48,337 nucleotides of DNA from Mageeibacillus sp. UBA1255 (GTDB lineage Bacteria; Bacillota; Clostridia; UBA1212; UBA1255): NCBI GenBank assembly GCA_002308795.1, contig DBVV01000068.1:1076-49412 (forward strand), in the 5' to 3' direction. The notes beneath the pieces were generated by a model, which was given only the letters and a program-made list of their open reading frames with translations, did no database searches and was not told the DNA's origin. Positions 15,603-32,804 of the stretch are shown piece after piece. The position numbers and the translations under genes are program-made. How positions within the stretch are numbered: position 1 is the first letter of the stretch; every line of letters begins with the position of its first letter.

Positions 15603-15690
15603 TGTCAGACCTCTCTTTATGTTCGTCATTAACGAGCGGGCAACCCCAGAGTTACCCGCATCTCAAGCTATCAGTCCTGTCCAAAAAAGA

Positions 15691-15867
15691 TCAATCTGTT
15701 ACTTTTGAAAACAGTTCAACAGTAGGCAATCCGATTGTGCTGTCCTCTGTGTCCGTTTCAGGGAAAACATGTCTTAAAATATGATCCGGTGTACTTAATG
15801 TAAGCACATCATCGTCCGGGAGATAAACTACTGAAATCTCCGGTTCTTCATAGATTCTTTTTTTCAT
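15691..15867 (-). CDS. Small acidic hypothetical protein (58 aa)
   Basis: The ATG at 15867 lies 7 nt after a strong GGGAGGA RBS. Sequence: MKKRIYEEPEISVVYLPDDDVLTLSTPDHILRHVFPETDTEDSTIGLPTVELFSKVTD. It lies between paralogs 2 and 1 on the same strand. Confidence 0.5.
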   Translation of the reverse strand: MKKRIYEEPEISVVYLPDDDVLTLSTPDHILRHVFPETDTEDSTIGLPTVELFSKVTD

Positions 15868-15880
15868 AATTATCCTCCCA

Positions 15881-20006: not shown

Positions 20007-21104
20007 TTAACCCTCCTTGAAATTACGGTCAATATACTCGACCAGGTCTTGTACATAATTTGTCATTATCGCCGTGTCTCTAGCGGTAGAGAATTCGCTA
20101 AACACTTTTTGCTTTTCGTCTTCGGAAATACATTCACGCTCCAGCGATCCTGCATGTCTGCGTGTGTAAAAATACGGGCCGGTCTTTCCGAAGCGTTCCA
20201 GCATCTCTTTTCTGATCGAATCGACCATATCTTCCGGCATTTTGTATGCAAAAGAAAACGCTTCATAACATCCGGTCTCACATATGATTTTGTATATCGA
20301 AGGCCATTCTTCTGCAGGATTCATCTTATCCATTATGAAAAACGCTTTTCCGTCACATACTTTCAGTACTTCTTCAAGTGTCGGTATCTGATATTCAGTT
20401 ATGCACCCTTCTCTGAATTTTCTGCCTGCCTTCAGTCGGAGTTCTCTTAATTCATCATATGTCCAGTCGCTTAAATTATCTGATTCCGGAAGTCCGTTTT
20501 TCCCTTTTTTTAATGTCCAGTCGGTAGTCTGATGCAGGGTACTCCAATGCATCAGCACGATCCGTTTGTCTTTTGTATACCGGAAATCCAGTTCCATGAT
20601 ATCAGCGCCCATTTGTATGGAACTTATGATTGCTTCGATCGAATTTTCCGGATAATAATCGCCGCCTCCACGATGTGCCCAGCAAAAAGGTCTGTTCTTT
20701 TTAGGGAATGATTCTACTTTTTCTCTATAGTCCAGAAGCCATGACGGCGGAGTCCAAATATACTTCCAGACCGGAATAAAACGGGAACAATCCTGAATAT
20801 ATTGTTCCCGTTTCGGAAAAGCAAAAGCAGTATTTAGTTCCTCAAGAGTATATGTACGATCGGACAATTCACATTTCCAGATATATGAAAGAGCAAGATA
20901 TAACATTTCACCGTTAGACGCTTTGATATTAATTGCGCCGTCGCGGCAAATAATGTCATACCCTTTGAAAGCCTGCTCTTCGATCTTCTGACTACGGGTC
21001 AGCGTCACTTCCACAGGTAAACTGTTTATTATTTCAATGCATAATTCACTGTATTCCTTGGGATCAAAATTCTCAATAAACAGTTTTTCCCAGGCAAGAA
21101 TCAT
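20007..21104 (-). CDS. Glycerophosphodiester phosphodiesterase (GDPD) family protein, no signal peptide
   Basis: CWAHRGGGDYYPENSIEAIISSIQMGADIMELDFRYTKDKRIVLMH is the GDPD catalytic signature (HR...E...E.D...H). I prefer the ATG at 21104; the ORF track starts at the TTG at 21119. Confidence 0.75.
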   Translation of the reverse strand: MILAWEKLFIENFDPKEYSELCIEIINSLPVEVTLTRSQKIEEQAFKGYDIICRDGAINIKASNGEMLYLALSYIWKCELSDRTYTLEELNTAFAFPKREQYIQDCSRFIPVWKYIWTPPSWLLDYREKVESFPKKNRPFCWAHRGGGDYYPENSIEAIISSIQMGADIMELDFRYTKDKRIVLMHWSTLHQTTDWTLKKGKNGLPESDNLSDWTYDELRELRLKAGRKFREGCITEYQIPTLEEVLKVCDGKAFFIMDKMNPAEEWPSIYKIICETGCYEAFSFAYKMPEDMVDSIRKEMLERFGKTGPYFYTRRHAGSLERECISEDEKQKVFSEFSTARDTAIMTNYVQDLVEYIDRNFKEG

Positions 21105-21125
21105 ATCCTCTCCCCCCAAAGCAGG

Positions 21126-22067
21126 TTAATTATAACTTTTCCCTGCTCCCTCGTCTAATTCTATTTTGTTGCAGTTTGTATTACAAAAATTTATATCTTC
21201 ATAGATGTTTTTTAGTTCTTGAAACAGATCCGGATATGCAAATCCGGGACGGCAAATAAAATGAATACTGCGATCCATATTGACACCCTCCAGCGGCAGC
21301 GCAACAAGTTTGCCCTCGTTTATCTCTGCCTGGCAGGCGGCTACCTGCAGTATCGATATTCCTACATTGCCCTCGACAAGTTTTTTAATTACTTTCAGGC
21401 TGTTCGTTTCGACCACGACATTCAGATCGTCTGCCCTGAGTGACCCTTTTTGAAGTTCTTCATCCAGGACCTGCATCGCATAATTATTTTTATAGCAAAG
21501 GATCATTTTTTCTTTTTTAAACTGCTCAAAAGTGATCTTTTTCTCGTTTGCGAGAGGATGGTCAGGCGATACTATAACACGGCTTTTGTCTTTACAAAGC
21601 GGATATACGTTAAATCCTTCCGGCGCGGGATAATTGATAAGCACCCAATCTAATTCACAATCGATAAGTTTTTTTATAAGAGTCTTCCTGGAGTCACAAT
21701 ATATATCCAGCGTCAGATCGGGATGTTTCTGGCAATATACTGCCATGATGCCTGACAATATATTTTCTGCCAGGGTTATTGTTACACCTATTGAGAAGTG
21801 ACACGGTTTCTCCGCCATGACCCGAATATCGGACAAGAACGTATTTTCTATCGAGCGGGATTTCTCGGCATATTCGACGAGACGCATTCCGGCATCGGTA
21901 AGCCTAATATTTTTCCCGTTCTTTTCAAAAATACGGATCCCGTATTCTGTTTCAAGCTGTTTGATATGATGACTAACTGCAGGCTGAGTCAATGCAAGTT
22001 CGTTGGCCGAGCGCGTGAAATTTTTCGTTTGTGCTACGCTTAATAACGTTTTTAACCGTACGTCCAT
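21126..22067 (-). CDS. LysR-family transcriptional regulator
   Basis: The N-terminal wHTH FTRSANELALTQPAVSHHIKQLE is followed by a substrate-binding domain of typical length. The gene is on the same strand as the surrounding operon and embedded in it. Confidence 0.9.
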   Translation of the reverse strand: MDVRLKTLLSVAQTKNFTRSANELALTQPAVSHHIKQLETEYGIRIFEKNGKNIRLTDAGMRLVEYAEKSRSIENTFLSDIRVMAEKPCHFSIGVTITLAENILSGIMAVYCQKHPDLTLDIYCDSRKTLIKKLIDCELDWVLINYPAPEGFNVYPLCKDKSRVIVSPDHPLANEKKITFEQFKKEKMILCYKNNYAMQVLDEELQKGSLRADDLNVVVETNSLKVIKKLVEGNVGISILQVAACQAEINEGKLVALPLEGVNMDRSIHFICRPGFAYPDLFQELKNIYEDINFCNTNCNKIELDEGAGKSYN

Positions 22068-22084
22068 CAAAAATCACCACCGTT

Positions 22085-23503
22085 TTATATTTTAAGATTT
22101 TCTTCCAGATGTATTTGTGCCGCCCATTGTCTGCTGACCAGACAGAACGGGTCTCCTTCCAGGCATAAGATCTCAAGCAATCTTGCCCGGAGCGATCCTA
22201 TCACTTCGGTAAGGGCAGGTTCGTGTATTAGATTATTGATTTCCCACGGATCGTCGCACAAGTTATACAGTTCATCGGTATCCGTGGCATTCCATATATA
22301 TTTCCACTGATCTGTTTTGATACAGCGCTGAGTGAATAGCCCGAACTGTGCGCCATTCAGCGAAGAAACCGCCTCATTTCGTTCTCCGGACATGCCCGAA
22401 AGAACGTCTACAAAACTGATCCCGTGAAGCCCTGTGCCGCTCGGGTCAATATGATTTAGTTCCATGAGCGTCGGTCCCAGATCCAGATTGTGCATCGTAT
22501 ATGCTCCGGTTCTCCGGGGCACGTGTCGGCAAGTACCGTTTGCCGGTTTTACGATAAGCGGGACATGGATAACATCTTCGTAAAGCACATAATGCTTATC
22601 AAACATTTTATGATCCCCGCACATATCTCCGTGGTCGGAAGTGAATACTATAGTCGTATCGTCTTTTATTCCCAGATCTTTTAGCGAACCGATCATCTGT
22701 CCTATGTGATGATCCAGCTCCGAGATCTGGGCATAATATTTGCGAACTATCGGTTCCCAATCTTCCCAGGACTTGCTTCCGTTTTTCCAGTTGAAGATCT
22801 GCTGCCTCTGAATGTATGGCTTGCCTGCCAGCGGATCATCGAAGCCTCCCCACTTCAAAGCGCGATCATACATCTCGTAGAAACTTCGATGCGGCCTGTA
22901 AGGAGGATGGGGACTTGAAAAACACACTGTCATAAAGAACGGATCCGGACCCGTTTTCACCGCATTTTTGATTTCTTCTATTGCACACGCAGCCGTGAAT
23001 CCCGTCGGTGTTTCCGAGATATCACATTCATCTACCCAACCTTCAACCAGGTGTTTTCGTTCTTTGCAGACGCAGCTTTCTCCGTGTAAAAGCCGGTATT
23101 CCTCCCACGTGTCTCTTTGCCGAACATAGCCGTATTCAGTGCAGTCGTGTAAAGGGTTCAGTTCGGAGCGGCCTATGTGGATAGTGTTATACCCCGCTTC
23201 TCTAAAATCACGTACAAAAGAATAATCTTCGACAGGCAAGCCGCCGATAGGCATTGTTACATCATAATTCCAGTAAGAGCCGAAACTCTCGCTCCTTTTA
23301 CAGGCGTAGAAACTTTGCCTGGCCGGACAACATGTGGGAATCGACGTATACGCATTTTCGAAAAATGTACTTTCTTCCGCCAGAGCGTCAAGATTCGGCG
23401 TTAGTACCGGGATCTCATTCGAAAAGCCCATGCAATCGTATCTGAATTGGTCGGCGACAATTATTAAAACGTTCTTTTTTGGTTCTTCATTCATAGCAGT
23501 CAC
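22085..23503 (-). CDS. Cys-type sulfatase (formylglycine-dependent), apparently cytoplasmic
   Basis: LIIVADQFRYD, the sulfatase signature PTCCPARQSF (C-x-P-x-R), and DHGDMCGDHKM. I see no signal peptide. The start is either the GTG at 23503 (GTGA overlap with the upstream stop) or the ATG at 23494. Confidence 0.85.
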   Translation of the reverse strand: MTAMNEEPKKNVLIIVADQFRYDCMGFSNEIPVLTPNLDALAEESTFFENAYTSIPTCCPARQSFYACKRSESFGSYWNYDVTMPIGGLPVEDYSFVRDFREAGYNTIHIGRSELNPLHDCTEYGYVRQRDTWEEYRLLHGESCVCKERKHLVEGWVDECDISETPTGFTAACAIEEIKNAVKTGPDPFFMTVCFSSPHPPYRPHRSFYEMYDRALKWGGFDDPLAGKPYIQRQQIFNWKNGSKSWEDWEPIVRKYYAQISELDHHIGQMIGSLKDLGIKDDTTIVFTSDHGDMCGDHKMFDKHYVLYEDVIHVPLIVKPANGTCRHVPRRTGAYTMHNLDLGPTLMELNHIDPSGTGLHGISFVDVLSGMSGERNEAVSSLNGAQFGLFTQRCIKTDQWKYIWNATDTDELYNLCDDPWEINNLIHEPALTEVIGSLRARLLEILCLEGDPFCLVSRQWAAQIHLEENLKI

Positions 23504-24825
23504 TCATAGTTATATTTTGTGCTGATCCACTGTACACATTCATACGGATGATCCGTGAGCAGATTATTTCCCGCTTTATAGTATTGACCGAAGAAACTGT
23601 TCAGTTCGGTTTGTGTTTTTAACGTGATATCTTTTGACAGATCTCCCGTGTGTTTACGTGAATAATAATTCAGCGAAACAGGCAGTCCGTCTGAGGCCAT
23701 CTGCCTGCGGTAAGGTTCAAGATCTGCATCCGCGTCTTTAAAACTTTTGCCGAAAAGAAAATTCTGGGTGCTTTCGGTTTCTTTAAGGACTTTGTAAATA
23801 TCGTCCCAGTATTTGAGACAGTCGATCTTATCGAGATTGACAAAGATCCGGTTCCTGCACACTCTCATAACTTCTTTCAAAGTCGGGATCTTGTACGGTG
23901 TGATCTCGCCGGTTTCAGAAGAATATTGCCCGTAATTGAAACGCAAATTAAGTTCCAGCAGCTGTTCGTAGGTCCAACCGGCAACTTTCTGACTTTTGGG
24001 CAGGCCGTTCTTTCCTTTCTTTTCTGCCCAGTCAGTACATTCGTTCAAATCGCCGTGCATCAATATCAGCACGTCATCTTTTGTGCGCTGTATATCTATT
24101 TCGATAATATCGCAGCCCATTTTGATAGAACTGATAATGGATTCGATCGAATTCTCGGGATAGAATTGCAGACCGCCTCTGTGAGCGGTACACATCATGC
24201 GGCCTTTGGCTGTAAACGAATTTTGCTTTTCATTAAAATCCAGCATCCACGCCGGAGGTGTCCATTGATATTGCCACACCGGGGTAAAAAGTTCGATGTT
24301 TTTTATATAATCTTCTCTGTTAACTCTTTTTTCGGATATTCCCAGCGCTTGTATATTTTCAGATGTGACCCGAGCCGGATCACCGGAAAAATAATCATAT
24401 TTCAGGCGCATCGAAGCCAGATAGATCAGATCCGTGCTTGAAGCGGTGATACTGATCTCATCATTGCCGAACAATATGCTGTATCCATCCTGTGCGGCAT
24501 CCGTGTTTATATATATCGACAATATTCCATCCTGGCTTGAATTCTGTGATAATTGATCCAGCTCTGTAACCGTATAACTTGCCGCGAAAAAGTTCTTAAG
24601 TTCTTCCGCTGCTTTTGTTTCATATATTGATGGTTCTTCGGACAATACAAACACACATTTTGTATATTTATCCGGTTGCGGTGTCTTACTATTATCGTTT
24701 GTCGAAACAGGCGAGGTATTTTCATCAGGCGTTATTGGTTTTACTCCGTGCGAGCAACTGACAGTCATAGCGCAAATAACGATAATAACAATCAAACAAA
24801 GCATTCTCTTTGTCAAACCATTCAC
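23500..24825 (-). CDS. GDPD-family phosphodiesterase lipoprotein
   Basis: Signal peptide with the lipobox MTVSC. CTAHRGGLQFYPENSIESIISSIKMGCDIIEIDIQRTKDDVLILMHGD. It shares a pre-catalytic segment (TPVWQYQWTPPAWMLDF) with the other GDPD (IPVWKYIWTPPSWLLDY). The RBS is GGGAGGTGA. Confidence 0.8.
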   Translation of the reverse strand: MNGLTKRMLCLIVIIVICAMTVSCSHGVKPITPDENTSPVSTNDNSKTPQPDKYTKCVFVLSEEPSIYETKAAEELKNFFAASYTVTELDQLSQNSSQDGILSIYINTDAAQDGYSILFGNDEISITASSTDLIYLASMRLKYDYFSGDPARVTSENIQALGISEKRVNREDYIKNIELFTPVWQYQWTPPAWMLDFNEKQNSFTAKGRMMCTAHRGGLQFYPENSIESIISSIKMGCDIIEIDIQRTKDDVLILMHGDLNECTDWAEKKGKNGLPKSQKVAGWTYEQLLELNLRFNYGQYSSETGEITPYKIPTLKEVMRVCRNRIFVNLDKIDCLKYWDDIYKVLKETESTQNFLFGKSFKDADADLEPYRRQMASDGLPVSLNYYSRKHTGDLSKDITLKTQTELNSFFGQYYKAGNNLLTDHPYECVQWISTKYNYE

Positions 24826-25034: not shown

Positions 25035-27053
25035 TTACAGCATCAGGTCAGCCACCATCTCGCCGATCTCGGAGGCATTGTCGATCGAAAGGCCGCTTAT
25101 CAGGCGTGCCTGCGCGTATAGGATCTTTGTAAAGCGCGAAAGCTTGTCATTGTCCGTGCCGTAAAGCGATTTAAGTTTTGCTGCGATAGGATGATCGATA
25201 TTGACCTCGAGCACGAGCTGAGCCTTGATCCCGCCGTCTTCGACGCCGGGCATCTGCTTTAGCGTCTTCTCCATACCCATAGACAGCTCACCTTCGCTCG
25301 AAAGGCTGACGGGGTGGTTTTTAAGCGTATTTGTAAACCTTACGGACTTAACAGCGCCCCCGATTGCATTCTTCATCAGATCCAGCATATCGGCGTTCTT
25401 TTCGTTCTCCTGCTTGATCGTCTCCTTCTCTTCGTCGGTGGCGATGTCAAGCTCGTCGCGTTGTACGTTAAGGAATTCTTTATCGTTATATGTCCTTAGC
25501 ATCTGGAGCGCGAATTCGTCAACGTCTTCGGTCAGGTACAGCACTTCGCAGCCGTGGGCCAGCACCGCTTCCACCTGAGGCAGGAGCTTGATCTGGTTGA
25601 TGCTCTCGCCGGAAGCATAATATATCTTCTTCTGATCTTCCTTCATGCGGGAGACATACTCTTTGAGGGTCACGCCCCGGCTGCCGTCGGGGGCCTGCTT
25701 CACTTCTTCAGCATTCGCTTCTGTCTCAGCCTTCGCCTCTGCGTCGTCCTCCGCCTTCTCTTCGGCTTTCGCCGGAGCCTCGTACGATGACTTCAGCAGC
25801 AGCAGATCCTGGAGCACGTCTTTATGAGAGCCGTAATCCATATAGAGGCCGTACTTTAATTGACGCCCGAAAGCCTTGAAAAACTGTTCATATTTCTCCC
25901 GGTCGTTTTCAAGCATTTTCGCAAGTTCTGCAGCGATCTTCTTCTCGACAGCTTTAGCGATCGCCTTTAACTGACGGTCGTGCTGCAGCATCTCACGTGA
26001 AATATTAAGCGAAAGATCGGCGCTGTCAACGAGTCCCCTTACGAAGCTGAAATAGTCCGGCAGGAGTTCTTTGCATTTTTCCATGATAAGCACGCCGCTC
26101 GAATAAAGCTGGAGCCCCTTTTCGTATTCGCGGCTGTAATAATCGAACGGAGCATGCGCCGGTATGAACATCAGCGATTCGAAACTGGATAAGCCTTCGG
26201 TTTTCTGGCGGATCACCTTGAGAGGCGCTTCGTAATCGTAAAATTTATTGCGATAAAAGTCTGCGTATTCGTCGTCGGTCACCTGGTCCTGGGGGCGCTT
26301 CCAGATCGGTACCATCGTGTTGAGCGTCTCGTCCTCGGTGTAACTCTCGTACTCGGGCTTATCATCCGGGCTCCCTTCTTTTTTGCGCGATTTCGTCACT
26401 TCCATCCTGATAGGATAGCGGATGTAATCACTGTACTTTTTAACCAGTTCGCGTATGCGCCACTCGTCAAGGAACTCGCCGTAGTTTTCCTCGTCACCGT
26501 CCGGTTTGAGATGCAGTGTGACAACGGTGCCGTTGTCTTCTTTTTCGCACGGGTCAATGCTGTACCCGTCTGCTCCGGACGATCTCCAGCACCATGCCGA
26601 ATCGCTTCCCCAGGCGCGGCTCTCGACCGTCACCAGGTCGCTCACCATGAACGCTGAGTAGAAACCGACGCCGAACTGACCGATGATATCTATATCTGCA
26701 TTGCCGCCCGCCGGGTCGGGATCGCCGGCCTTATCGTCGCCTTTTTTGAATTCAAAAGAACCGCTTTTTGCGATAGTACCGAGGTTATTCTCCAATTCAT
26801 CCCTGGTCATACCGATGCCGTTGTCCCTGATCTCCAGAGTGCGGTTATCTTTATCTGCCGTGATCCGGATCTCATAATCCGAACGCGAAAGCGTGATGCT
26901 TCCGTCTGTGAGCGATCTGAAATACAGTTTATCGATCGCGTCGCTGGCATTGGAAATAAGTTCTCTCAAGAAGATCTCTTTGTGGGTATAGATGGAGTTG
27001 ATCATCATATCCAGCAGCTTTTTCGATTCAGTTTTGAATTGTTTTTTGGACAT
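25035..27053 (-). CDS. htpG: Molecular chaperone HtpG (Hsp90)
   Basis: FKTESKKLLDMMINSIYTHKEIFLRELISNASDAIDKL and IGQFGVGFYSAFMV are Hsp90 signatures. I prefer the ATG at 27053 (MSKKQF...), which follows AAGGAAGGAA. Confidence 0.95.
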   Translation of the reverse strand: MSKKQFKTESKKLLDMMINSIYTHKEIFLRELISNASDAIDKLYFRSLTDGSITLSRSDYEIRITADKDNRTLEIRDNGIGMTRDELENNLGTIAKSGSFEFKKGDDKAGDPDPAGGNADIDIIGQFGVGFYSAFMVSDLVTVESRAWGSDSAWCWRSSGADGYSIDPCEKEDNGTVVTLHLKPDGDEENYGEFLDEWRIRELVKKYSDYIRYPIRMEVTKSRKKEGSPDDKPEYESYTEDETLNTMVPIWKRPQDQVTDDEYADFYRNKFYDYEAPLKVIRQKTEGLSSFESLMFIPAHAPFDYYSREYEKGLQLYSSGVLIMEKCKELLPDYFSFVRGLVDSADLSLNISREMLQHDRQLKAIAKAVEKKIAAELAKMLENDREKYEQFFKAFGRQLKYGLYMDYGSHKDVLQDLLLLKSSYEAPAKAEEKAEDDAEAKAETEANAEEVKQAPDGSRGVTLKEYVSRMKEDQKKIYYASGESINQIKLLPQVEAVLAHGCEVLYLTEDVDEFALQMLRTYNDKEFLNVQRDELDIATDEEKETIKQENEKNADMLDLMKNAIGGAVKSVRFTNTLKNHPVSLSSEGELSMGMEKTLKQMPGVEDGGIKAQLVLEVNIDHPIAAKLKSLYGTDNDKLSRFTKILYAQARLISGLSIDNASEIGEMVADLML

Positions 27054-27178
27054 AGAAAATTCCTTCCTTCTTATAACTATATATGGCATTCCGGCGCCGC
27101 CGCGGTGCTGCTTGAACATCGGGCTTCACCGGAACCGTGCTGCCTAGTTATTATTATACGACTTCGTGTCAATACTTA

Positions 27179-28627
27179 TTACCGGTTAGAGTCTGATAAA
27201 TGTGCAGACCTTCCGTACATCATATTCTGCCTTTTCCAGTATCCGCGGTCGATCAGCCCGAGCTGTTTTTCCGTGAACCTGATCGCCCAGTTGCCTGCCT
27301 GTTTTCCGGGCGTATTCATTCTGGTGTCCATCCCGTACTCGAGAAGATCCTGCACCGGGAATATGACCCTTACGGCATTCGATCGCATCAGTGTTTTTAT
27401 TATATACGGGCAGGCGTATTTTCCGTCTGTCCCGGGATATCCTATGTAGTCAAGCATCCTGTTCCTGTCTTCGAAACTCATATCAAAAATGTACCCGAGC
27501 AGAGTGTTGTTATCATGCGTACCGGAATACGCGACAACGTTTTCAGGATAATTATGCGGAAGGTGCGGATTCTCTTCGGACAAGAACGCAAACTGAAACA
27601 CTCTCATGCCCGGGAGACCGGTATCGGACAGAAGTTTACGGACGCCGTCGTCAATATCCCCGAGGTCTTCTGCTATGATCAGTCTGCCCCTCGCCTCTGC
27701 CTTTAAGGTTTCTACGAACGCGAAGCCCGGACCTTCCTCCCAGCGTCCCTCTTTCGCTGTTTTCGTACCGGCGGGTATTGCCCAGTATGCGGAAAAAGCG
27801 CGGAAATGGTCGATCCTGACTCCGTCAAACAGCATAAGCTGATGGCGGATGCGGTCTCTCCACCAGCGGTATCCGTCCTTTTTCATATTGTCCCAATTAT
27901 ATAACGGATTGCCCCAGAGCTGTCCGTCCTCGGCGAAGTAATCCGGCGGAACACCCGCGACTGCAGTCGGTTTACCGGTATCCGGATCGATCATAAACAG
28001 ATCGGGATGGAAACGGACGTCCGCCGAATCCAGATCGGTGTAGATCGGTATGTCTCCGATGATCTCGATCCCCTTTTTATTTGCGTACGCTTTAACGCAG
28101 AGCCACTCGCGCAGGAACTCATATTGAATAAATTCGTGTGTGAATATCGCTTCATCCGTATCAGCCGCACCCGTACCGGAAGACGAATCGGCTTCCCGCT
28201 CAGCCATAAAAACACAGAAATCAAACAGTTCCGGATAATCACGTATCTTTTTATCGATTTCTTCACGTTCTTCGTTGGCCACGCGCCCGGCTGCTTTTCT
28301 GAGCAGCTCAATGCGTTCGGCGAATAATCTTTCATACTCGCAAAGATAAGGCGTTTTCTGCCTTGCCCCGTCGAGCTCGCTTTTGGTGATCAGTCCCTTT
28401 TCGTATAACGTCGGAAGGTCAATAAAAAACGGGTTTCCGGCGAATCCGGACAATGATTTATAAGGCGAACCGTTTACGTCCGGCCAGTTGAACGGGAGCG
28501 TCTGCCACATTGAAAATCCGCAGTCTGAGAGGAGGTCAACGAACCTGAGCGCCTCTTTTCCGAACGATCCGCAAGAATAATCTCCGGGAAGAGTGGAAAT
28601 ATGCATAAGAATACCTGACCGTCTCAT
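27179..28627 (-). CDS. malQ: 4-alpha-glucanotransferase (amylomaltase, GH77)
   Basis: The N-terminal RRSGILMHISTLPG, WQTLPFN and the length fit GH77. ATGA overlap with the upstream peptidase gene. Confidence 0.9.
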   Translation of the reverse strand: MRRSGILMHISTLPGDYSCGSFGKEALRFVDLLSDCGFSMWQTLPFNWPDVNGSPYKSLSGFAGNPFFIDLPTLYEKGLITKSELDGARQKTPYLCEYERLFAERIELLRKAAGRVANEEREEIDKKIRDYPELFDFCVFMAEREADSSSGTGAADTDEAIFTHEFIQYEFLREWLCVKAYANKKGIEIIGDIPIYTDLDSADVRFHPDLFMIDPDTGKPTAVAGVPPDYFAEDGQLWGNPLYNWDNMKKDGYRWWRDRIRHQLMLFDGVRIDHFRAFSAYWAIPAGTKTAKEGRWEEGPGFAFVETLKAEARGRLIIAEDLGDIDDGVRKLLSDTGLPGMRVFQFAFLSEENPHLPHNYPENVVAYSGTHDNNTLLGYIFDMSFEDRNRMLDYIGYPGTDGKYACPYIIKTLMRSNAVRVIFPVQDLLEYGMDTRMNTPGKQAGNWAIRFTEKQLGLIDRGYWKRQNMMYGRSAHLSDSNR

Positions 28628-29130
28628 TTTTCGCCTCCGCTCCCCCGGTCTTCGGAATGATCCGGCGCAGCATGCTTTTTTTTGAATATTTTACGGTATA
28701 CGCGTCCCGCAAAACTTCTCAGCCTGAGTTTAAGACTAACGACCGGATGAATAAAGACAATAAAACGCGAATAAAAGCGGTAACCTTTTTCATTAACAGA
28801 ATGTTCCCTGCCCCTGTGAACGAACGAAGTCATGACAGCGATCATATCATTGTCCGTGACACCTAATTCCTTCCTGATGCAATTGTCGCCCCGGATAACG
28901 TATCCATCCGGCAGCACCTTTATCACGCGATGAAGCACGTATTTACCGGGAGGCCTGCGGTACAGCACAGTATCGTACTTTTCAGGGCGCTGACCATCCT
29001 CTAGTCTGGTTAAAGTAAAAAGGTCTCTTCCCTGCTTCAGCAGGGGCATCATGCTTACCCCCACGTTTGAATAGGTCAGAGTACCGTTTTCACTAAGATA
29101 TTCTTCGAACGAAGGTCTTTTCTCTCCCAC
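28624..29130 (-). CDS. S24/S26-family (signal-peptidase/LexA-like) serine peptidase
   Basis: 168 aa with a GTG start. The Ser motif is GVSMMPLL, the candidate Lys is in LHRVIKVLPDGYVIRGDN, and there is a C-terminal hydrophobic stretch FYSRFIVFIHPVVSL. Confidence 0.65.
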   Translation of the reverse strand: MGEKRPSFEEYLSENGTLTYSNVGVSMMPLLKQGRDLFTLTRLEDGQRPEKYDTVLYRRPPGKYVLHRVIKVLPDGYVIRGDNCIRKELGVTDNDMIAVMTSFVHRGREHSVNEKGYRFYSRFIVFIHPVVSLKLRLRSFAGRVYRKIFKKKHAAPDHSEDRGSGGEK

Positions 29131-29136
29131 GCCCGC

Positions 29137-29397
29137 TCAATCCTCCAGCGCGTCGATCCCGCGCAGTTTTTCTATCACTTTATCTACGTCTGCCGCGATC
29201 ACTTCTTTCGGGGCGTCAAACTTTTCGAACATGGCGTCAACGATCTCGTCGCGCGTCGTTTCTTTTTTGAGAAGCTCCACGATCATTCCTGCCGTTTTAT
29301 TACCGCGTATCATTCCGTTGAAGCCCGAACCTCCGGTGCTGACGGTGATGTGCTCGTCGCCTTTATCGTAAGTTATGAATTGTTTTTTCAGCTTCAT
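29137..29397 (-). CDS. PqqD-family peptide-binding protein (RiPP recognition element-like)
   Basis: 86 aa. NKTAGMIVELLKKETTRDEIVDAMFEKFDAPKEVIAADVDKVIEKLRGIDAL matches the PqqD-family pattern and size. The RBS is AAGGGGAG. Confidence 0.7.
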   Translation of the reverse strand: MKLKKQFITYDKGDEHITVSTGGSGFNGMIRGNKTAGMIVELLKKETTRDEIVDAMFEKFDAPKEVIAADVDKVIEKLRGIDALED

Positions 29398-29426
29398 TGC
29401 TATTTACTCCCCTTTTGAAGTGTGGT

Positions 29427-30197
29427 TTATTCATTCATTCCGCCGCTTATTCCGCCGTTCATTCCGCCGTATGATACCATGGCGGCTTCAGGCTCCATGT
29501 TGCAGTAAAGCCTGTACATCCCCGCCTGCTCGGAGACGCGGTCAATAAGCCCGAGCGTCGTTCTAAGCATTTCGGGGTCGTGCGGTCTGTAAGACTGTTT
29601 CAGAAGCGTAGGGAACGCCTCACGAGACGTTATCCCGGAAATACTGTTATTTTCCCCTCTTTCAAGGAGGCATACCGCTTTAAGAGGCACGCAGATATTT
29701 GCGCCAAGACCGTGCTTTCCGTTCCATGGCGAACCGCATACAAAAACGCCGTTATCAGAGACGCGGATAAAAGGCTTATCGTCATTGACCATGACTGCCC
29801 TCTCCCCGAAAAGATCTCTCCACAGCGATACGTGCGTAGATTTCCCCGTGCCGCTCGGTGCGGTAAAAATATACCCCTCGCCGTCAACGCTGATCGCGGA
29901 TCCGTGCATCAGAAAGCGGCCGAACTGCGGCAATGCCTCGGCGATCTTTCTGAATATCGCCATTGCCTCGATATATGCGGGATGCCTAACTGATTCCGGA
30001 TCTTCAGGTAAATACTTCTTTTCCCCTTCCATATCTTCATCAGTTACTTCGACGGATATATCCGGCATGCTGCCGTCATCGTCCGTCTGCTCCGAATCAT
30101 CCTTTTTGAGATAATTCGCACAGATACGGGCGATATACCCGTATCTGTGGTTTATCCTTATATTCAGTCCCGCAATATACGTGTCCAGAGTATTCAT
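29427..30197 (-). CDS. HPr kinase C-terminal domain-like P-loop kinase
   Basis: LMHGSAISVDGEGYIFTAPSGTGKSTHVSLW resembles the HprK-like kinases found beside PqqD proteins, for example lasso-peptide precursor kinases. It has an acidic insert and a Gly/Met/Asn-rich tail, GGMNGGISGGMNE. Confidence 0.65.
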   Translation of the reverse strand: MNTLDTYIAGLNIRINHRYGYIARICANYLKKDDSEQTDDDGSMPDISVEVTDEDMEGEKKYLPEDPESVRHPAYIEAMAIFRKIAEALPQFGRFLMHGSAISVDGEGYIFTAPSGTGKSTHVSLWRDLFGERAVMVNDDKPFIRVSDNGVFVCGSPWNGKHGLGANICVPLKAVCLLERGENNSISGITSREAFPTLLKQSYRPHDPEMLRTTLGLIDRVSEQAGMYRLYCNMEPEAAMVSYGGMNGGISGGMNE

Positions 30198-30204
30198 TAC
30201 CGGA

Positions 30205-31269
30205 TTACACCCTGACGGTCCAGTTCATCGTATCCGGAAGCTTTCCGGACTGTATACCGGTTATCGAATCGTAAAGTTTCTGAGAGATCGGGCCTATCTC
30301 GCCGTTATTGATGGTCATCTTATGGCCTTCCCAGTTGAGCTCTCCGACAGGAGAGATGACAGCAGCGGTACCTGTTCCGAACACTTCGTCCAGCTTACCG
30401 GCCTCGTATGCGTCGTAAACTTCCTTTATACCCAGTTTTCTCTCTTCGACTTTATAGCCCCAGCTCTTAAGAAGCTGTATCGAAGAATCTCTGGTAACAC
30501 CGGCGAGGATGCTGCCGTTGAGCGCGGGCGTAACGATCGTACCGTCGATCACGAAGAAAACGTTCATCGTCCCGACTTCCTCGATATACTTACGCTCTAC
30601 ACCGTCCAGCCACAACACCTGCGTATATCCGAGTTCCGCCGCTTTCTCCTGCGCACGTATCGATGCTGCGTAGTTACCGGGAGTCTTTGCAAAACCGATA
30701 CCGCCTTTAACAGCTCTTACGTAATCGTCTTCAACGTATATTTTAACCGGATTAAGTCCCTCGGGATAGTAAGCTCCGACCGGTGACAATATGATCATAA
30801 ACAGATAATGGCTCGCGGGATGTACGCCGAGCTGAGGGTCAACGGCGATAATAAACGGTCTTACGTACAAAGATGTTCCGGGATTGGTCGGTACCCAGTC
30901 GATATCGATGCGGACAAGCTCTTTAAGTGCTTCGAGTGCGAATTCTTCGTCGATAGGCGGAATGCACAGGCGCTCGTTAGAGATGTTCGCTCTTTCAAAG
31001 TTTTTCTGAGGTCTGAACAGCAGCGTACGTCCGTCAGGCGTGCGGTATGCTTTCATTCCCTCGAAAATTCCCTGACCGTAATGGAAAATCATTGCGGAAG
31101 GATCCAGCGAAATAGGTCCGTACGGTACGATGCGTGCGTCGTGCCATCCCTGGCCCTTATCATAGTCCATTATGAACATATGATCCGTAAAGATCTTCCC
31201 GAATCCCAGTTTGCTCTGATCCTGCGGTTTTTCTTTAGGAGTTTTGATGCGTTCAACTTTTATTTCCAT
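30205..31269 (-). CDS. ilvE: Branched-chain amino acid aminotransferase
   Basis: FGKIFTDHMF, the length (354 aa) and the class IV aminotransferase pattern (EGMKAYR, NVFFVIDG). The RBS is AGGGAGGA. Confidence 0.9.
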   Translation of the reverse strand: MEIKVERIKTPKEKPQDQSKLGFGKIFTDHMFIMDYDKGQGWHDARIVPYGPISLDPSAMIFHYGQGIFEGMKAYRTPDGRTLLFRPQKNFERANISNERLCIPPIDEEFALEALKELVRIDIDWVPTNPGTSLYVRPFIIAVDPQLGVHPASHYLFMIILSPVGAYYPEGLNPVKIYVEDDYVRAVKGGIGFAKTPGNYAASIRAQEKAAELGYTQVLWLDGVERKYIEEVGTMNVFFVIDGTIVTPALNGSILAGVTRDSSIQLLKSWGYKVEERKLGIKEVYDAYEAGKLDEVFGTGTAAVISPVGELNWEGHKMTINNGEIGPISQKLYDSITGIQSGKLPDTMNWTVRV

Positions 31270-31333
31270 AATTCAGTCCTCCCTGTTAAAAGCATCGTAA
31301 AAAGTGATCATCGGAGTTTTTCCGATCAACGTG

Positions 31334-31362
31334 AGTATATCACTTATGAGCTTTTCAGTCAA
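31334..31362 (-). promoter_or_regulatory. Promoter for ilvE and the downstream minus-strand genes
   Basis: The minus strand reads TTGACT, 17 nt, TATACT, about 60 nt upstream of the ilvE ATG. Confidence 0.6.
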
Positions 31363-31469
31363 TCCGCTTTTGGGCTCTTTTCCTTCCCTTTGATAAATAC
31401 GTACTGTTTGTGATAATATAATAAACGCGGCCGGAACAGCCTGCGGCTGCATGGGAGGCGGATCATATC

Positions 31470-32804
31470 GTGGCTCTGACAGTGGGGATCTGCACACTCG
31501 GGTGCAAGGTCAATTTTTATGAAAGCGAATGCATTAAAGAGCTTCTGGAAAAGGAAGGATTTGAGATCCGTGATTTTTCGGAGAAGTGTGATATTTATAT
31601 AATCAATTCATGCACCGTTACCGGAGAAGGTGACAGAAAAGTAAAGCAGGCATGCCGCCGGGCTGTAAAAACGAACCCGGGAGCGTTTGTTTGCGTAACG
31701 GGCTGCACCGCACAGATCGCCCCCGAAAAGCTGGCCGGAATAAGCGGGATAGGATATATATGCGGAAACAGATCAAAAAAAGCTATTGTCGACCGCATAC
31801 TCGAATATGCGAAAGGAGTACGCGGAAGCAGCGAAAACGCCGAGATCGACGTTCAGGACTTTGGCCCCGCGCCCGAATACGAACCGCTGAAATTGTCCGC
31901 GACGGGTCATACAAGAGCATTCATAAAAATCGAAGACGGCTGCAACAGTTCGTGCTCATACTGCATAATCCATACCGCGAGAGGCCCCGCGAGATCAAGG
32001 CCGGAAGACGATATACTTGACGAGATACGCAGAATGGCGAAGGCCGGATACAAAGAAGTGATCCTGACCGGGATCGAATTGTCATCGTATGAAGGAGACA
32101 TACCCGGGCTCGCGAAAAAAGCCGGAGAAATACCCGGGATAGAAAGGATCAGGCTCGGATCGCTTGACCCCGCATATATAACAAAAGAGCGGATAATGCG
32201 TCTGAAAGAAGCGCCTAAGCTGATGCCGCATTTCCACATCTCGCTTCAGAGCGGAAGTTCACACGTTCTGGCGGCAATGAAACGTAAGTATAATGCCAAA
32301 ACCGCGCTCGATCGTATTATGTTTTTAAAGCAGACGTTCCCGGATGCTTCTCTGTTTGCGGATATAATCGTAGGATTCCCGGGAGAGACCGAACAGGATT
32401 TTAACGAAACATTAGAATTTATCAAAAAGATCCGTTTCCTTCACCTGCACATATTCCCCTACTCCAGAAGGAACGGTACGATCGCGGCTTCGATGCCGGG
32501 TCAGCTTTCTTCTGCCGAGAAGCGGCGAAGGGCCGGGGCTCTGGCGGAGATCCAGCGCTCGATCAAGCGCAGCATTCTTGAGCAGGCCGTGAAAGCCGGT
32601 CAGGAAGGGCGTCTTTTAAAAGTGCTGTTTGAAGAAGGCCGCACGGGACATTCCGAAGAATTTTTCAAAATAAAAGCAGAGGATGCCGGATCGACACCCT
32701 CTGCCGCTAAAATGTCCGAAAAAGGTACGATAAGCCTGTGCAGACCCCTTTACACAGACGGAGACGTTATTTACGTCATGCCTGCAGAGGTACTCGTACC
32801 GTAA
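31470..32804 (+). CDS. mtaB: tRNA t6A37 methylthiotransferase MtaB (MiaB-like radical SAM)
   Basis: GTG start. The N-terminal TLGCKVNFYESE, the radical SAM motif CNSSCSYCII and a C-terminal TRAM-like region. Confidence 0.85.
   Translation: MALTVGICTLGCKVNFYESECIKELLEKEGFEIRDFSEKCDIYIINSCTVTGEGDRKVKQACRRAVKTNPGAFVCVTGCTAQIAPEKLAGISGIGYICGNRSKKAIVDRILEYAKGVRGSSENAEIDVQDFGPAPEYEPLKLSATGHTRAFIKIEDGCNSSCSYCIIHTARGPARSRPEDDILDEIRRMAKAGYKEVILTGIELSSYEGDIPGLAKKAGEIPGIERIRLGSLDPAYITKERIMRLKEAPKLMPHFHISLQSGSSHVLAAMKRKYNAKTALDRIMFLKQTFPDASLFADIIVGFPGETEQDFNETLEFIKKIRFLHLHIFPYSRRNGTIAASMPGQLSSAEKRRRAGALAEIQRSIKRSILEQAVKAGQEGRLLKVLFEEGRTGHSEEFFKIKAEDAGSTPSAAKMSEKGTISLCRPLYTDGDVIYVMPAEVLVP

What the first reader, a model, noticed from the sequence alone, without database searches (positions are those of the whole stretch)
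28624..30197. Orphan PqqD + HprK-like kinase + S24/S26 peptidase trio with no visible precursor, wedged between ilvE and malQ
Seen in the sequence: three small genes are packed tightly between housekeeping genes on the same strand. The gaps are 7 nt after ilvE, 29 nt and 6 nt within the trio, and an ATGA overlap into malQ. The only obvious promoter lies upstream of ilvE.

Established knowledge: PqqD-like domains are the peptide-leader recognition elements of many RiPP pathways. HprK-like kinases next to them phosphorylate precursor peptides in some lasso-peptide clusters (the paeninodin type). S24/S26 Ser-Lys peptidases could remove a leader.

What is missing here: a lasso cyclase (asparagine synthetase homolog), a B2 protease, a radical SAM partner, an exporter, and any short ORF that could be the substrate.

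Inference: this may be a minimal recognise-phosphorylate-cleave module acting on a peptide or protein encoded elsewhere. The kinase also has an unusual acidic insert and a GGMNGGISGGMNE tail.
Basis: partly seen in the sequence, partly recalled or inferred. Interest (0 to 1): 0.65.

Follow-up and report, generated by a model that had tools for sequence, protein, structure and literature searches.

The report
LPP-like phosphopeptide maturation gene trio
The three small genes are the kinase, leader-binding protein and leader peptidase of a peptide-maturation pathway first described in 2026 (linear polyphosphorylated peptides), and a likely substrate peptide is encoded about 13 kb away in the same window.

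Summary
Three tightly packed minus-strand genes lie between ilvE and malQ: a P-loop kinase-fold protein (29427-30197), a PqqD leader-recognition protein (RRE, 29137-29397) and an S26-type peptidase (28624-29130).

Popov et al. (Nat Commun 2026, PMC13381572) showed that lppK-lppB-lppS, in this gene order, makes linear polyphosphorylated peptides (LPPs) in Bacilli.

- **Peptidase.** It aligns with LppS (hhalign 97.8%). It carries a Ser26/His67/Glu88 triad, so it is the archaeal Ser-His type, not Ser-Lys.
- **RRE.** It keeps the Asn33 and Asp70 residues that LppB uses to bind a YxxP leader.
- **Kinase.** It folds like PEPCK/HprK and keeps its P-loop.

The window belongs to a large Clostridial sister clade: more than 6,000 kinase homologues and more than 4,000 precursor-like peptides. 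Its leader, YExPxMEVVxFxxEDVITTS, differs from the Bacilli one, and the paper did not class this clade as LPP.

"No visible precursor" is true only locally. A conserved 58-aa ORF with a strong ribosome-binding site at 15691-15867 carries this leader in register.

No exporter or NTP-transferase gene is in the window. Bare trios recur in 7 of 41 fully flanked loci. Assigning the 58-aa peptide as substrate is inference.

The parts
29427..30197 (-). lppK-like P-loop kinase (ScmC/TIGR04249-type, HprK/PEPCK fold), 256 aa
   Evidence: The best NCBIfam hit is TIGR04249 ScmC (E=1.3e-4), followed by HprK models. All 120 listed homologues carry Pfam PF27840 'ScmC'. The AF2 model has pLDDT 92.8. Foldseek matches PEPCK (E=5e-7, TMq 0.55) and HprK/P (E=8e-6). 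H98-G99, the Walker A motif S115-G-T-G-K-S-T121 and N138-D-D-K-P142 are invariant across 120 sequences, apart from T117, which is conserved in at least 90%.
29137..29397 (-). lppB-like discrete RRE (PqqD family), 86 aa
   Evidence: Pfam PqqD E=4e-13, above the cutoff. In alignment with LppB, Asn33 and Asp70 fall on LppB N33 and D70, the residues that hydrogen-bond the leader YxxP motif; the paeninodin RRE PbaB1 has Gly and Gln at these positions. The protein is 87-92% identical in relatives whose kinase is only 65-67% identical.
28624..29130 (-). lppS-like archaeal/ER-type S26 leader peptidase, 168 aa (GTG start)
   Evidence: G24-x-S26-M-x-P29, H67-R68, G81-D82 and E88 are invariant (N83 at least 90%) across the 39 homologues aligned (near-identical result for 57). 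The family profile matches SEC11A/C and SpsB in the PDB. BLASTP against LppS gives E=4e-9, and hhalign gives probability 97.8%, E=1.3e-12. S26/H67/E88 align with the LppS catalytic residues S29/H68/D93. It is 35% identical (E=5e-23) to Ruminococcus SpI SCH01704.1 from the paper's SSN cluster 9.
15691..15867 (-). Candidate precursor peptide (lppA-like), 58 aa: MKKRIYEEPEISVVYLPDDDVLTLS/TPDHILRHVFPETDTEDSTIGLPTVELFSKVTD. The leader is encoded at about 15793-15867.
   Evidence: The peptide aligns without gaps, from Tyr to Ser, to the Clostridial leader family. The PSSM score is 21.3 bits, against -0.7 +/- 2.9 (maximum 7.3) for the best hit in shuffled windows. Divergent leaders that sit next to kinase genes score 19-26 bits. 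Gene callers in public assemblies already call this ORF. It is conserved in relatives, with an in-frame 4-codon indel and 9 synonymous against 6 non-synonymous codon changes. Members of this leader family sit beside K-B-S clusters in 3 of 3 independently chosen cases.
15874..15879 (-). Shine-Dalgarno GGGAGG, 6 nt upstream of the candidate precursor's ATG
   Evidence: Read directly from the sequence. The same GGGAGG is conserved in L095.
31334..31362 (-). Promoter-like site upstream of ilvE; the probable promoter of an ilvE-K-B-S-malQ transcript
   Evidence: TTGACT-17-TATACT with an extended TG, 10 of 12 matches. It is the only minus-strand site in 26500-32000. This is a consensus match only.
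30205..31269 (-). ilvE (class IV aminotransferase); upstream co-oriented neighbour, 7 nt from the kinase gene
   Evidence: Pfam Aminotran_4 E=1.3e-31. The same ilvE-K-B-S-malQ order is seen in L088 and L090.
27179..28627 (-). malQ (4-alpha-glucanotransferase); downstream neighbour, overlapping the peptidase stop codon by ATGA
   Evidence: Pfam Glyco_hydro_77 E=2.5e-136. The synteny is conserved.

Best explanation
**What the trio is.** It is a reduced, chromosomally embedded version of a linear polyphosphorylated peptide (LPP)-type RiPP maturation system, consisting of lppK-, lppB- and lppS-like genes.

**Mechanism by homology (inferred for this locus).**
1. The 86-aa PqqD protein binds the YxxP-containing leader of a small precursor as an added beta-strand. 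Asn33 and Asp70 fix the Pro kink and the Tyr hydroxyl.
2. The 256-aa P-loop kinase transfers one or more phosphates from ATP to a Ser near the leader/core junction. The best candidate is the family-invariant Ser. It lies 19 residues after the Tyr; in LppA the phospho-acceptor Ser3 lies 18 residues after it.
3. The RRE presents the junction to the 168-aa archaeal-type S26 peptidase (Ser26/His67/Glu88), which removes the leader.

**Expression (inferred).** The three genes are probably read through from the ilvE promoter.

**Substrate (inferred, about 50-60% likely).** The most likely substrate in this window is the 58-aa peptide at 15691-15867. It is encoded between surface-protein genes 13 kb away.

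**Missing parts.** The usual exporter (lppD) and NTP-transferase (lppN) are not in the window. They may lie elsewhere in the genome or be dispensable.

**Shown versus inferred.** The gene identities, conserved catalytic motifs, co-occurrence and leader family are shown here. The phosphorylation and cleavage chemistry is shown only for the Paenibacillus homologues.
For: **Domain set and order.** The domains and their order match the published lppA-K-B-S-D-N cluster. In the paper's RODEO analysis the kinases are annotated by TIGR04249/TIGR04352, the peptidase by TIGR02228, the RRE by PqqD, the transferase by NTP_transf_5 and the pump by MsbA models TIGR02203/02204. The window proteins and their relatives give the same best hits.

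**Match to the characterised proteins.**
- Peptidase against LppS: hhalign probability 97.8%, with the catalytic residues aligned.
- RRE: N33 and D70 are conserved.
- Kinase: confident PEPCK/HprK fold with an intact P-loop.

**Co-occurrence.** The kinase gene is followed by the PqqD gene in 70 of 88 fetched sources (84 non-redundant) and by the S26-like gene in 65. NTP_transf_5 is present in 40 and an ABC exporter in 30 loci. Single ORFs matching both the kinase and PqqD profiles (L020), both kinase and S26 (L081), and both S26 and NTP_transf_5 (L054, L055) suggest gene fusions.

**Precursors.** Small ORFs bearing the leader lie just upstream of the kinase gene in 37 of 84 loci. In the reverse direction, 3 of 3 precursor-family members chosen only for contig length lie next to K-B-S(-D)-N.

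**Window peptide.**

**Selection on the trio.** The ilvE-K-B-S-malQ order and intact ORFs persist in lineages whose kinase is 65-67% identical.

**Precedent for split systems.** Bare K-B-S trios are the commonest pattern among fully flanked loci (7 of 41). The paper's own table lists RREs and precursors encoded elsewhere in the genome.
Against: - There are no biochemical data for any member of the Clostridial clade.
- The Clostridial leader profile shows no significant similarity to LppA beyond the YxxP-hydrophobic motif (hhalign probability 0.2%).
- The paper classed Ruminococcus-type RREs as "other", not as LPP RREs.
Its TIGR04249 score (21.5 bits) is far below the cutoff (125).
- The window peptide scores only about 20 bits, against 40-70 for typical leaders. 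It has Leu where Phe is nearly invariant, and a longer core.
- The window peptide lies 13 kb from the trio, in another operon, and its subfamily occurs only in close relatives. On those contigs no trio is visible.
- No exporter or NTP-transferase is present in the window.
Confidence: 0.75

Rival explanations
1. The trio is an active LPP-like module, but its substrate is a different peptide or protein encoded outside the window. The 58-aa ORF is then unrelated, for example a small secreted or surface-associated peptide, or a substrate of another enzyme.
For: The leader match is weak (about 20 bits against 40-70). The peptide sits in a separate operon 13 kb away. Contigs of relatives that carry the peptide show no trio within 10 kb. 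Six other bare K-B-S loci have no leader-type ORF within 6 kb of the kinase gene, so remote substrates are the norm for this arrangement.
Against: The ungapped, in-register match of Tyr, Pro, the hydrophobic positions, Asp-Val and the invariant Ser far exceeds shuffled controls. Equally divergent leaders are found adjacent to kinase genes. The leader family is tightly tied to K-B-S clusters. No other candidate exists in 48 kb.
Confidence: 0.3
2. The trio is a decaying remnant of a once-complete cluster that has lost its precursor, exporter and NTP-transferase. It has no current function and is merely carried along in the ilvE-malQ transcript.
For: No precursor, ABC exporter or NTP_transf_5 gene is adjacent or in the window. 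The paper infers frequent gain and loss for LPP systems.
Against: All three ORFs are intact with invariant catalytic residues. The same five-gene order persists at 65-67% kinase identity, with the RRE 87-92% identical. Translational coupling is retained through the short gaps and the ATGA overlap. Bare trios recur in many lineages.
Confidence: 0.07
3. The trio serves a radical-SAM RiPP pathway of the SynChlorMet-cassette type. The PqqD protein acts in trans for the RRE-less rSAM/SPASM enzyme at 12853-13932, which would modify the neighbouring 58-aa peptide. The kinase-fold protein and the peptidase would then be accessory.
For: The kinase's best NCBIfam hit is ScmC of the SCM cassette. Some related loci pair K-B-S with one or two rSAM/SPASM maturases and Cys-containing cores that carry the same leader. 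The window rSAM lacks an N-terminal RRE and lies convergent to the peptide's operon, also in relatives. Its weaker hits include RRE-less cyclophane-forming maturases.
Against: The window rSAM's best match by far is anaerobic sulfatase maturase (E=2e-83). A Cys-type sulfatase sits in the same neighbourhood. The peptide core has no Cys. The rSAM gene appears split in L091, where the peptide is intact. rSAMs in related clusters are a different type, about 450 aa long with N-terminal extensions.
Confidence: 0.06
4. The genes are tailoring and processing parts of a lasso-peptide pathway of the paeninodin/pseudomycoidin type, whose cyclase and B2 protease lie elsewhere.
For: HprK-like kinases, PqqD B1 proteins and NTP_transf_5 are typical of Firmicutes lasso clusters. 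The leaders share the YxxP motif and a Thr near the junction.
Against: No asparagine-synthetase-like cyclase or transglutaminase B2 was found in the window or as a recurrent neighbour in 84 loci. SpI-type peptidases mark the cyclase-independent LPP pathway. The RRE has the Tyr-type Asn33/Asp70, not the paeninodin-type Gly/Gln. Many cores are too short, or lack a positioned Asp/Glu, for a lasso fold.
Confidence: 0.04

Closest known systems
LPP (linear polyphosphorylated peptide) cluster lppA-K-B-S-D-N of Paenibacillus alginolyticus DSM5050 (Popov et al., Nat Commun 2026, PMC13381572)
   Same: Both have the gene order kinase, discrete PqqD RRE, archaeal-type SpI peptidase, and in relatives also an MsbA-like pump and NTP_transf_5. 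The best-hit models are the same (TIGR04249, PqqD, TIGR02228). The peptidase catalytic triad aligns. The RRE Asn33/Asp70 are conserved. The leader has YxxP-hydrophobic, with a conserved Ser 18-19 residues after the Tyr. Some clusters are linked to polysaccharide loci or VanZ.
   Different: The peptidase is only 24% identical. The third triad residue is Glu, not Asp. The leader consensus is YExPxMEVVxFxxEDVITTS, not YxxPxVLxHQxIxFETxxS, and profile similarity is not significant. Cores are mostly short and acidic. The host is Clostridia, whose SpI/RRE pairs the paper left outside its LPP set. In this window the D, N and adjacent A genes are missing, and the trio sits in a housekeeping operon.
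Paeninodin/pseudomycoidin-type lasso peptide clusters (PadeK/PsmK kinase, PsmN nucleotidyltransferase, B1 RRE)
   Same: Both have an HprK-like kinase that phosphorylates a precursor Ser, a discrete PqqD RRE that reads a [Y/W]xxP leader, and NTP_transf_5 and an ABC exporter in relatives.
   Different: There is no macrolactam cyclase and no transglutaminase-type B2 protease. The leader is removed by a serine S26 peptidase. The RRE has the Tyr-type determinants rather than the Trp pocket.
SynChlorMet (SCM) cassette: ScmC, ScmD (PqqD-like), ScmE/ScmF radical SAM/SPASM (TIGR04249 and TIGR04250; the cassette's composition is from my own knowledge)
   Same: The kinase-fold protein's best curated hit is ScmC, and it is paired with a PqqD protein. 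Some related loci add two rSAM/SPASM genes.
   Different: The score is far below the ScmC cutoff (21.5 against 125 bits). No ScmE/F genes are adjacent. An S26 peptidase is present, which to my knowledge the SCM cassette does not include.
ER/archaeal-type signal peptidases (SipW, SEC11A/C; S26B)
   Same: They share the GxSMxP nucleophile motif, the HR box with His as general base, the GDN box and an acidic third residue. The profile matches SEC11A/C.
   Different: The window protein has no N-terminal membrane anchor and is 168 aa long. It is genetically coupled to an RRE and a kinase. By homology it cuts an RRE-presented leader rather than a Sec signal peptide.
HPr kinase/phosphorylase and ATP-dependent PEPCK
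   Same: They share the fold, the P-loop (SGTGKST) and the preceding H-G-S motif.
   Different: The window protein is below the Pfam Hpr_kinase_C threshold, has no HprK N-terminal domain, and has only 12-20% identity in structural alignments. Its substrate is predicted to be a peptide.

Membership tests
LPP-type RiPP cluster (Popov et al. 2026) | Archaeal-type SpI (S26, SipW-like) leader peptidase with a Ser/His/acid triad | tested here: met
   S26, H67 and E88 are invariant. They align with LppS S29/H68/D93, whose mutation abolishes cleavage. The top NCBIfam hit is TIGR02228, the model that marks SpI in the paper.
LPP-type RiPP cluster (Popov et al. 2026) | Discrete PqqD-type RRE next to the peptidase, with the Asn/Asp pair that fixes a YxxP leader | tested here: met
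   Pfam PqqD is above its cutoff. N33 and D70 align with LppB N33 and D70. Pairwise similarity to LppB is weak (E=0.003), and the paper classed a Ruminococcus-type RRE as "other".
LPP-type RiPP cluster (Popov et al. 2026) | HprK-like kinase (annotated by TIGR04249/TIGR04352) with an intact nucleotide-binding site | tested here: met
   The best hit is TIGR04249, as for 67 of the kinases in the paper's table. The fold is PEPCK/HprK. The P-loop and NDDKP are invariant. No direct comparison with LppK was possible because its sequence is not held.
LPP-type RiPP cluster (Popov et al. 2026) | Precursor with leader YxxPxVLxHQxIxFETxxS encoded in the cluster | tested here: inconclusive
   No small ORF is adjacent. 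The candidate at 15691-15867 has YEEPEI and a Ser 19 residues after the Tyr (18 in LppA). The rest follows the Clostridial consensus, not the published one, and the profile against LppA is not significant.
LPP-type RiPP cluster (Popov et al. 2026) | MsbA-like exporter (LppD) and NTP_transf_5 (LppN) in the cluster | tested here: not met
   No NTP_transf_5 was found in the window. The only ABC hit is an ECF ATPase next to CbiQ. Both genes are present in many related loci.
LPP-type RiPP cluster (Popov et al. 2026) | Polyphosphorylation of a core Ser, and RRE-dependent leader cleavage | not testable with these tools
   This needs heterologous expression with mass spectrometry, as.
Lasso peptide cluster | Asparagine-synthetase-like macrolactam cyclase and transglutaminase-type B2 protease | tested here: not met
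   Neither was found among the window ORFs scanned. Neither appears among the annotated recurrent neighbour families in 84 loci.
SynChlorMet cassette | ScmC above its model cutoff, together with ScmD and two rSAM/SPASM genes (ScmE, ScmF) | tested here: not met
   TIGR04249 scores 21.5 bits against a cutoff of 125. No rSAM gene is adjacent. The window's rSAM/SPASM is anSME-like and 15 kb away.
HPr kinase/phosphorylase (Pfam Hpr_kinase_C) | Score above the Pfam gathering threshold | tested here: not met
   12.8 bits against a cutoff of 33.3; TIGR00679 scores 17.2 against 240. Relatedness is at fold level only.
S24 (LexA-like) / bacterial S26A signal peptidase | Ser-Lys catalytic dyad | tested here: not met
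   The general-base position holds an invariant His (H67 in the HR box), aligned with SEC11 His and LppS H68. No Pfam Peptidase_S24 or S26 hit was found.

The most novel reading that the evidence does not exclude
The Clostridial K-B-S clade may be a distinct and very abundant gut/rumen RiPP subfamily that has not been recognised as LPP. Its features are its own leader (YExPxMEVVxFxxEDVITTS), an invariant junction Ser as phospho-acceptor, and tiny acidic cores. In this lineage it may have been domesticated: a bare kinase-RRE-peptidase trio expressed constitutively with ilvE/malQ would mature, in trans, a peptide co-transcribed with cell-surface proteins, without a dedicated exporter. That would point to a cell-envelope or physiological role rather than a secreted antibiotic.
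Probability: 0.25. Interest if true: 0.6.

Novelty: new variant of a known kind. Interest (0 to 1): 0.4.

Why it matters
The biological role of LPPs is unknown, and the published work covers about 126 mostly Bacilli clusters. This window shows that the same kinase-RRE-peptidase logic is very widespread in uncultured gut and rumen Clostridia. There it uses a different leader and thousands of short acidic cores, is sometimes combined with radical-SAM enzymes, and often occurs as a bare trio away from its substrate.

This gives a concrete, testable enzyme-substrate pair: three small genes plus one 58-aa peptide. It also gives a leader motif for mining. It cautions that cluster-based genome mining will miss both the substrates and the products of such split systems.

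Tried and rejected
- **Leader search in the window.** A strict regular expression for the leader found nothing. An HMM and an ungapped PSSM then found the ORF at 15691-15867. The second-best PSSM hit (47239-47301, 15.2 bits) lies inside the EcfA gene and was dismissed.
- **Literature.** Searches on motif strings, 'ScmC', 'SynChlorMet' and 'PF14907' led nowhere. The relevant paper surfaced only through 'paeninodin/pseudomycoidin'.
- **Precursor family models.** No NCBIfam model, and no significant Pfam hit (best E=0.14), matches the six to eight precursor sequences scanned.
- **Exporter candidate.** The window ABC protein at 46291-48237 was considered. It is a duplicated ECF ATPase next to CbiQ.
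- **Maturase candidate.** The rSAM/SPASM at 12853-13932 was considered as a peptide maturase. Its best match is anaerobic sulfatase maturase, and a sulfatase lies nearby.
- **RRE against the PDB.** A sequence search with the PqqD protein gave nothing useful.
- **Leader against LppA.** The leader profile against LppA was not significant.
- **Peptide homologues.** A single-sequence search with the 58-aa peptide found only close relatives, so its link to K-B-S clusters in other lineages could not be tested directly.
- **RNA elements.** Rfam found no RNA element in the window.
- **Lasso machinery.** A lasso cyclase and B2 protease were looked for and not found.

Full report
**1. The observation**

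The minus strand carries, in order:
- ilvE (30205-31269)
- a 256-aa ORF (29427-30197)
- an 86-aa ORF (29137-29397)
- a 168-aa ORF with a GTG start (28624-29130)
- malQ (27179-28627)

The only sigma-70-like minus-strand site in 26500-32000 lies upstream of ilvE. No minus-strand terminator-like hairpin separates the five genes. Both are consensus scans only. Rfam finds nothing in the window.

**2. What the three proteins are**

*The 86-aa protein* is a PqqD-family RRE (Pfam 49.9 bits against a cutoff of 23.4).

*The 256-aa protein* misses the Hpr_kinase_C threshold. Its best curated hit is ScmC (TIGR04249, E=1.3e-4), followed by HprK models.
- It has 6,191 homologues in the protein collection. 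The 120 listed all carry the precomputed Pfam family PF27840, which the tool's contig tables label 'ScmC'.
- An AlphaFold2 model built on 120 sequences is confident (pLDDT 92.8). It matches ATP-dependent PEPCK (E=5e-7, TMq about 0.55) and HprK/P (E=8e-6).
- H98-G99, the Walker A motif S115-GTGKST and N138-DDKP are invariant, apart from T117, which is conserved in at least 90%.
- The PDB profile search aligns the H-G-S...SGTGKST stretch with the PEPCK nucleotide site.
- The acidic insert (about residues 31-48) and the GGMNGGISGGMNE tail are variable, low-confidence segments.

*The 168-aa protein* has only weak library hits (archaeal signal peptidase I, TIGR02228, E=6.6e-5).
- Alignments of 57 and 39 homologues show invariant G24-x-S26-M-x-P29, H67-R68, G81-D82 and E88; N83 is nearly invariant.
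- The family profile hits bacterial signal peptidase I and human SEC11A/C, with S26 and H67 on the catalytic Ser and His.
- It is therefore an ER/archaeal-type Ser-His S26 peptidase, not a Ser-Lys enzyme.

**3. The neighbourhood in other genomes**

I fetched 80 genome loci holding kinase homologues, plus several metagenome contigs.
- The kinase gene is followed by the PqqD gene in 70 of 88 fetched sources (84 non-redundant) and by the S26-like gene in 65, usually with gaps of a few bases.
- NTP_transf_5 is present in 40, and an MsbA-like ABC exporter in 30 loci.
- One or two rSAM/SPASM maturases of about 450 aa occur in a minority.
- No lasso cyclase or B2 protease appears among the recurrent neighbour families that were annotated.
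- Single ORFs match two profiles at once: kinase and PqqD (L020), kinase and S26 (L081), S26 and NTP_transf_5 (L054, L055). These suggest gene fusions.

The ilvE-K-B-S-malQ order of the window recurs in contigs whose kinase is only 65-67% identical. In those contigs the RRE is 87-92% identical. Among 41 loci with at least 5 kb upstream and 6 kb downstream, a bare K-B-S trio is the commonest single pattern (7 loci).

**4. Precursors**

Just upstream of the kinase gene many loci carry one to six ORFs of 32-50 aa. They share the leader M-x-K-Y-E-x-P-x-M-E-V-V-x-F-x-x-E-D-V-I-T-T-S, followed by a short, variable, mostly acidic or Gly-rich core. This holds for 37 of 84 loci.

A profile of 30 such peptides finds 4,319 proteins in the collection. 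All listed hits are unnamed or called only 'hypothetical protein' and carry no Pfam domain. No NCBIfam model, and no significant Pfam hit (best E=0.14), matches the sequences scanned. Three family members, chosen only because their contigs were long, all lie within about 3.4 kb of K-B-S(-D)-N genes.

In the window a strict pattern found nothing. An HMM and an ungapped 21-column PSSM then single out one place, 15793-15855 on the minus strand.
- It scores 21.3 bits. The best hit in each of 40 shuffled windows averages -0.7 +/- 2.9, with a maximum of 7.3.
- It is the N-terminus of a 58-aa ORF (15691-15867): MKKRIYEEPEISVVYLPDDDVLTLSTPDHILRHVFPETDTEDSTIGLPTVELFSKVTD.
- A GGGAGG sits 6 nt before its ATG, directly after the stop codon of a 776-aa surface-protein gene.
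- MAFFT aligns it to the family without gaps from Tyr to Ser.
- Equally low-scoring leaders (19-26 bits) occur right next to kinase genes elsewhere.
- The ORF is already called in public assemblies.
- It is conserved in close relatives at the same position between two large surface-protein genes. There is an in-frame 4-codon indel, 9 synonymous against 6 non-synonymous codon changes, and the same ribosome-binding site.

**5. Comparison with what is known**

The decisive reference is Popov et al., Nat Commun 2026 (PMC13381572).

[quoted passage not shown] Only a third of these are linked to lasso genes. They named the products linear polyphosphorylated peptides.

They expressed lppA-K-B-S-D-N from Paenibacillus alginolyticus in B. 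subtilis and found:
- LppK adds up to four phosphates to core Ser3.
- LppS cleaves after Thr-1 and needs LppB.
- The S29A, H68A and D93A mutants of LppS are inactive.
- LppB binds the leader YxxP through N33 and D70.
- LppN showed no activity.

The paper's domain table annotates the kinases by TIGR04249/TIGR04352, the peptidase by TIGR02228 and the pump by TIGR02203/02204. The window proteins and their relatives give the same best hits.

Direct comparisons with sequences from the paper's supplement:
- Window peptidase against LppS: BLASTP E=4e-9 (24% identity) and hhalign probability 97.8%. S26, H67 and E88 fall on S29, H68 and D93.
- Window RRE against LppB: weak pairwise similarity (E=0.003), but N33 and D70 are aligned and conserved. 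The paeninodin RRE has Gly and Gln there.

The leaders differ. The published consensus is YxxPxVLxHQxIxFETxxS, and a profile comparison with LppA is not significant. However, the conserved Ser lies 18 residues after the Tyr in LppA and 19 in the Clostridial family and the window peptide. I therefore infer that this invariant Ser is the phospho-acceptor. The exact cleavage site remains open.

The paper's dataset contains two Clostridial SpIs of this type, in SSN cluster 9. One of them (SCH01704.1) is 35% identical to the window protein (E=5e-23). Both are listed with RRE 'others', no LPP RRE, and precursors not determined. The dataset also lists cases in which the RRE and precursor lie elsewhere in the genome.

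**6. Interpretation**

The trio is an lppK-lppB-lppS-like recognise-phosphorylate-cleave module of a Clostridial sister clade of the published LPP family.
- Shown here: the gene identities, conserved catalytic residues, genomic coupling and the leader family.
- Inferred by homology: the chemistry.
- Inferred, at roughly even odds or a little better: the 58-aa peptide as substrate.

No exporter or NTP-transferase is in the window. The one ABC protein is an ECF ATPase.

Rival readings:
- A different, unlinked substrate is the main alternative.
- A decaying remnant is unlikely, given the conserved synteny and motifs.
- A radical-SAM partnership with the anSME-like enzyme at 12853-13932 is unlikely. 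That enzyme matches sulfatase maturase at E=2e-83, a sulfatase is nearby, and the peptide has no Cys.
- A lasso accessory role is not supported, because no cyclase or B2 was found.

**7. Verdict**

What remains new:
- the size and distinct leader of the Clostridial clade;
- its unrecognised status in the paper;
- the recurrent bare-trio arrangement inside a housekeeping operon;
- a concrete candidate substrate encoded among surface-protein genes.

Interest is moderate (0.4). I rate the novelty as a new variant of a known kind.

Noticed in passing
window 13929-15629, 15881-18211, 18201-20003 (all minus strand): Three paralogous large proteins (566, 776 and 600 aa) have N-terminal hydrophobic segments and, in two of them, Thr/Pro/Glu-rich linkers with C-terminal anchors. 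None has a Pfam hit. The candidate precursor gene is nested between two of them. In L098 a precursor likewise follows a 1341-aa repeat-containing surface protein. A possible functional link between such peptides and surface proteins is unexplained.
   Followed up: partly
window 12853-13932 (+), 22085-23503 (-), 20007-21119 (-), 23500-24825 (-), 21126-22070 (-): An RRE-less rSAM/SPASM enzyme has anaerobic sulfatase maturase as its best match (E=2e-83, below the model cutoff). It lies near an arylsulfatase-like gene with a CxPxR motif, two GDPD phosphodiesterases and a LysR regulator. This neighbourhood is conserved in relatives. The rSAM gene appears split into two ORFs in L091.
   Followed up: partly
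window 2984-4543 (+) and 4258-6795 (+): A BrxC/BrxD-family ATPase (PF10923, E=1.7e-163) lies next to a DEAD/Helicase_C protein. This may be a fragment of a phage-defence locus. The listed ORFs overlap by about 285 nt, so the start codons are uncertain.
   Followed up: no
L020 1935-2906; L081 9947-11176; L054 1068-2561; L055 10993-12546; L010 11023-14004: Single ORFs match two profiles at once: kinase + PqqD (L020), kinase + S26 (L081), and S26 + NTP_transf_5 (L054, L055). L010 has a 994-aa ORF that begins with the S26 domain. These appear to be gene fusions supporting functional coupling, but they were not checked for sequencing or frame errors.
   Followed up: no
L001 12130-13646; L041 11464-14406; L051 5477-8449; L038 8347-9899: In clusters that add one or two rSAM/SPASM maturases, the precursors keep the same leader but their cores contain Cys, for example PQGCGGCNNETAELEI and GDNCCDNGGSLAEGS. 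The best, sub-threshold maturase hits are TIGR04463, TIGR04280 and CefB. This suggests one leader/RRE system feeding different chemistries.
   Followed up: partly
L017 2284-3223; L047 766-1336: There are tandem arrays of six (L017) and five (L047) precursor genes, with near-identical leaders and diversified short cores, directly upstream of the kinase gene.
   Followed up: no
L003 1728-9373; L073 16171-16884; L100 547-6923: Some Clostridial K-B(-S) loci lie next to capsule or exopolysaccharide genes (Wzz, CpsB, epimerases, a Polysacc_synt flippase, an NTP_transf_5 inside the polysaccharide locus) or next to VanZ. This echoes the polysaccharide and VanZ association reported for Bacilli LPP clusters.
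   Followed up: no
window 12495-12839 (+): A HicB-family antitoxin gene lies immediately upstream of the rSAM gene (Pfam HicB, E=2.4e-18). In L091 a 53-aa ORF is called next to the HicB-family gene.
   Followed up: no
window 47239-47301 (-): This is the second-best leader-PSSM hit (15.2 bits, EAEEALLKIIEKEADPVRCTS). It lies inside the 648-aa ECF ATPase gene and is taken as a chance match. It shows that real coding sequence can exceed the shuffled-sequence maximum of 7.3 bits.
   Followed up: yes
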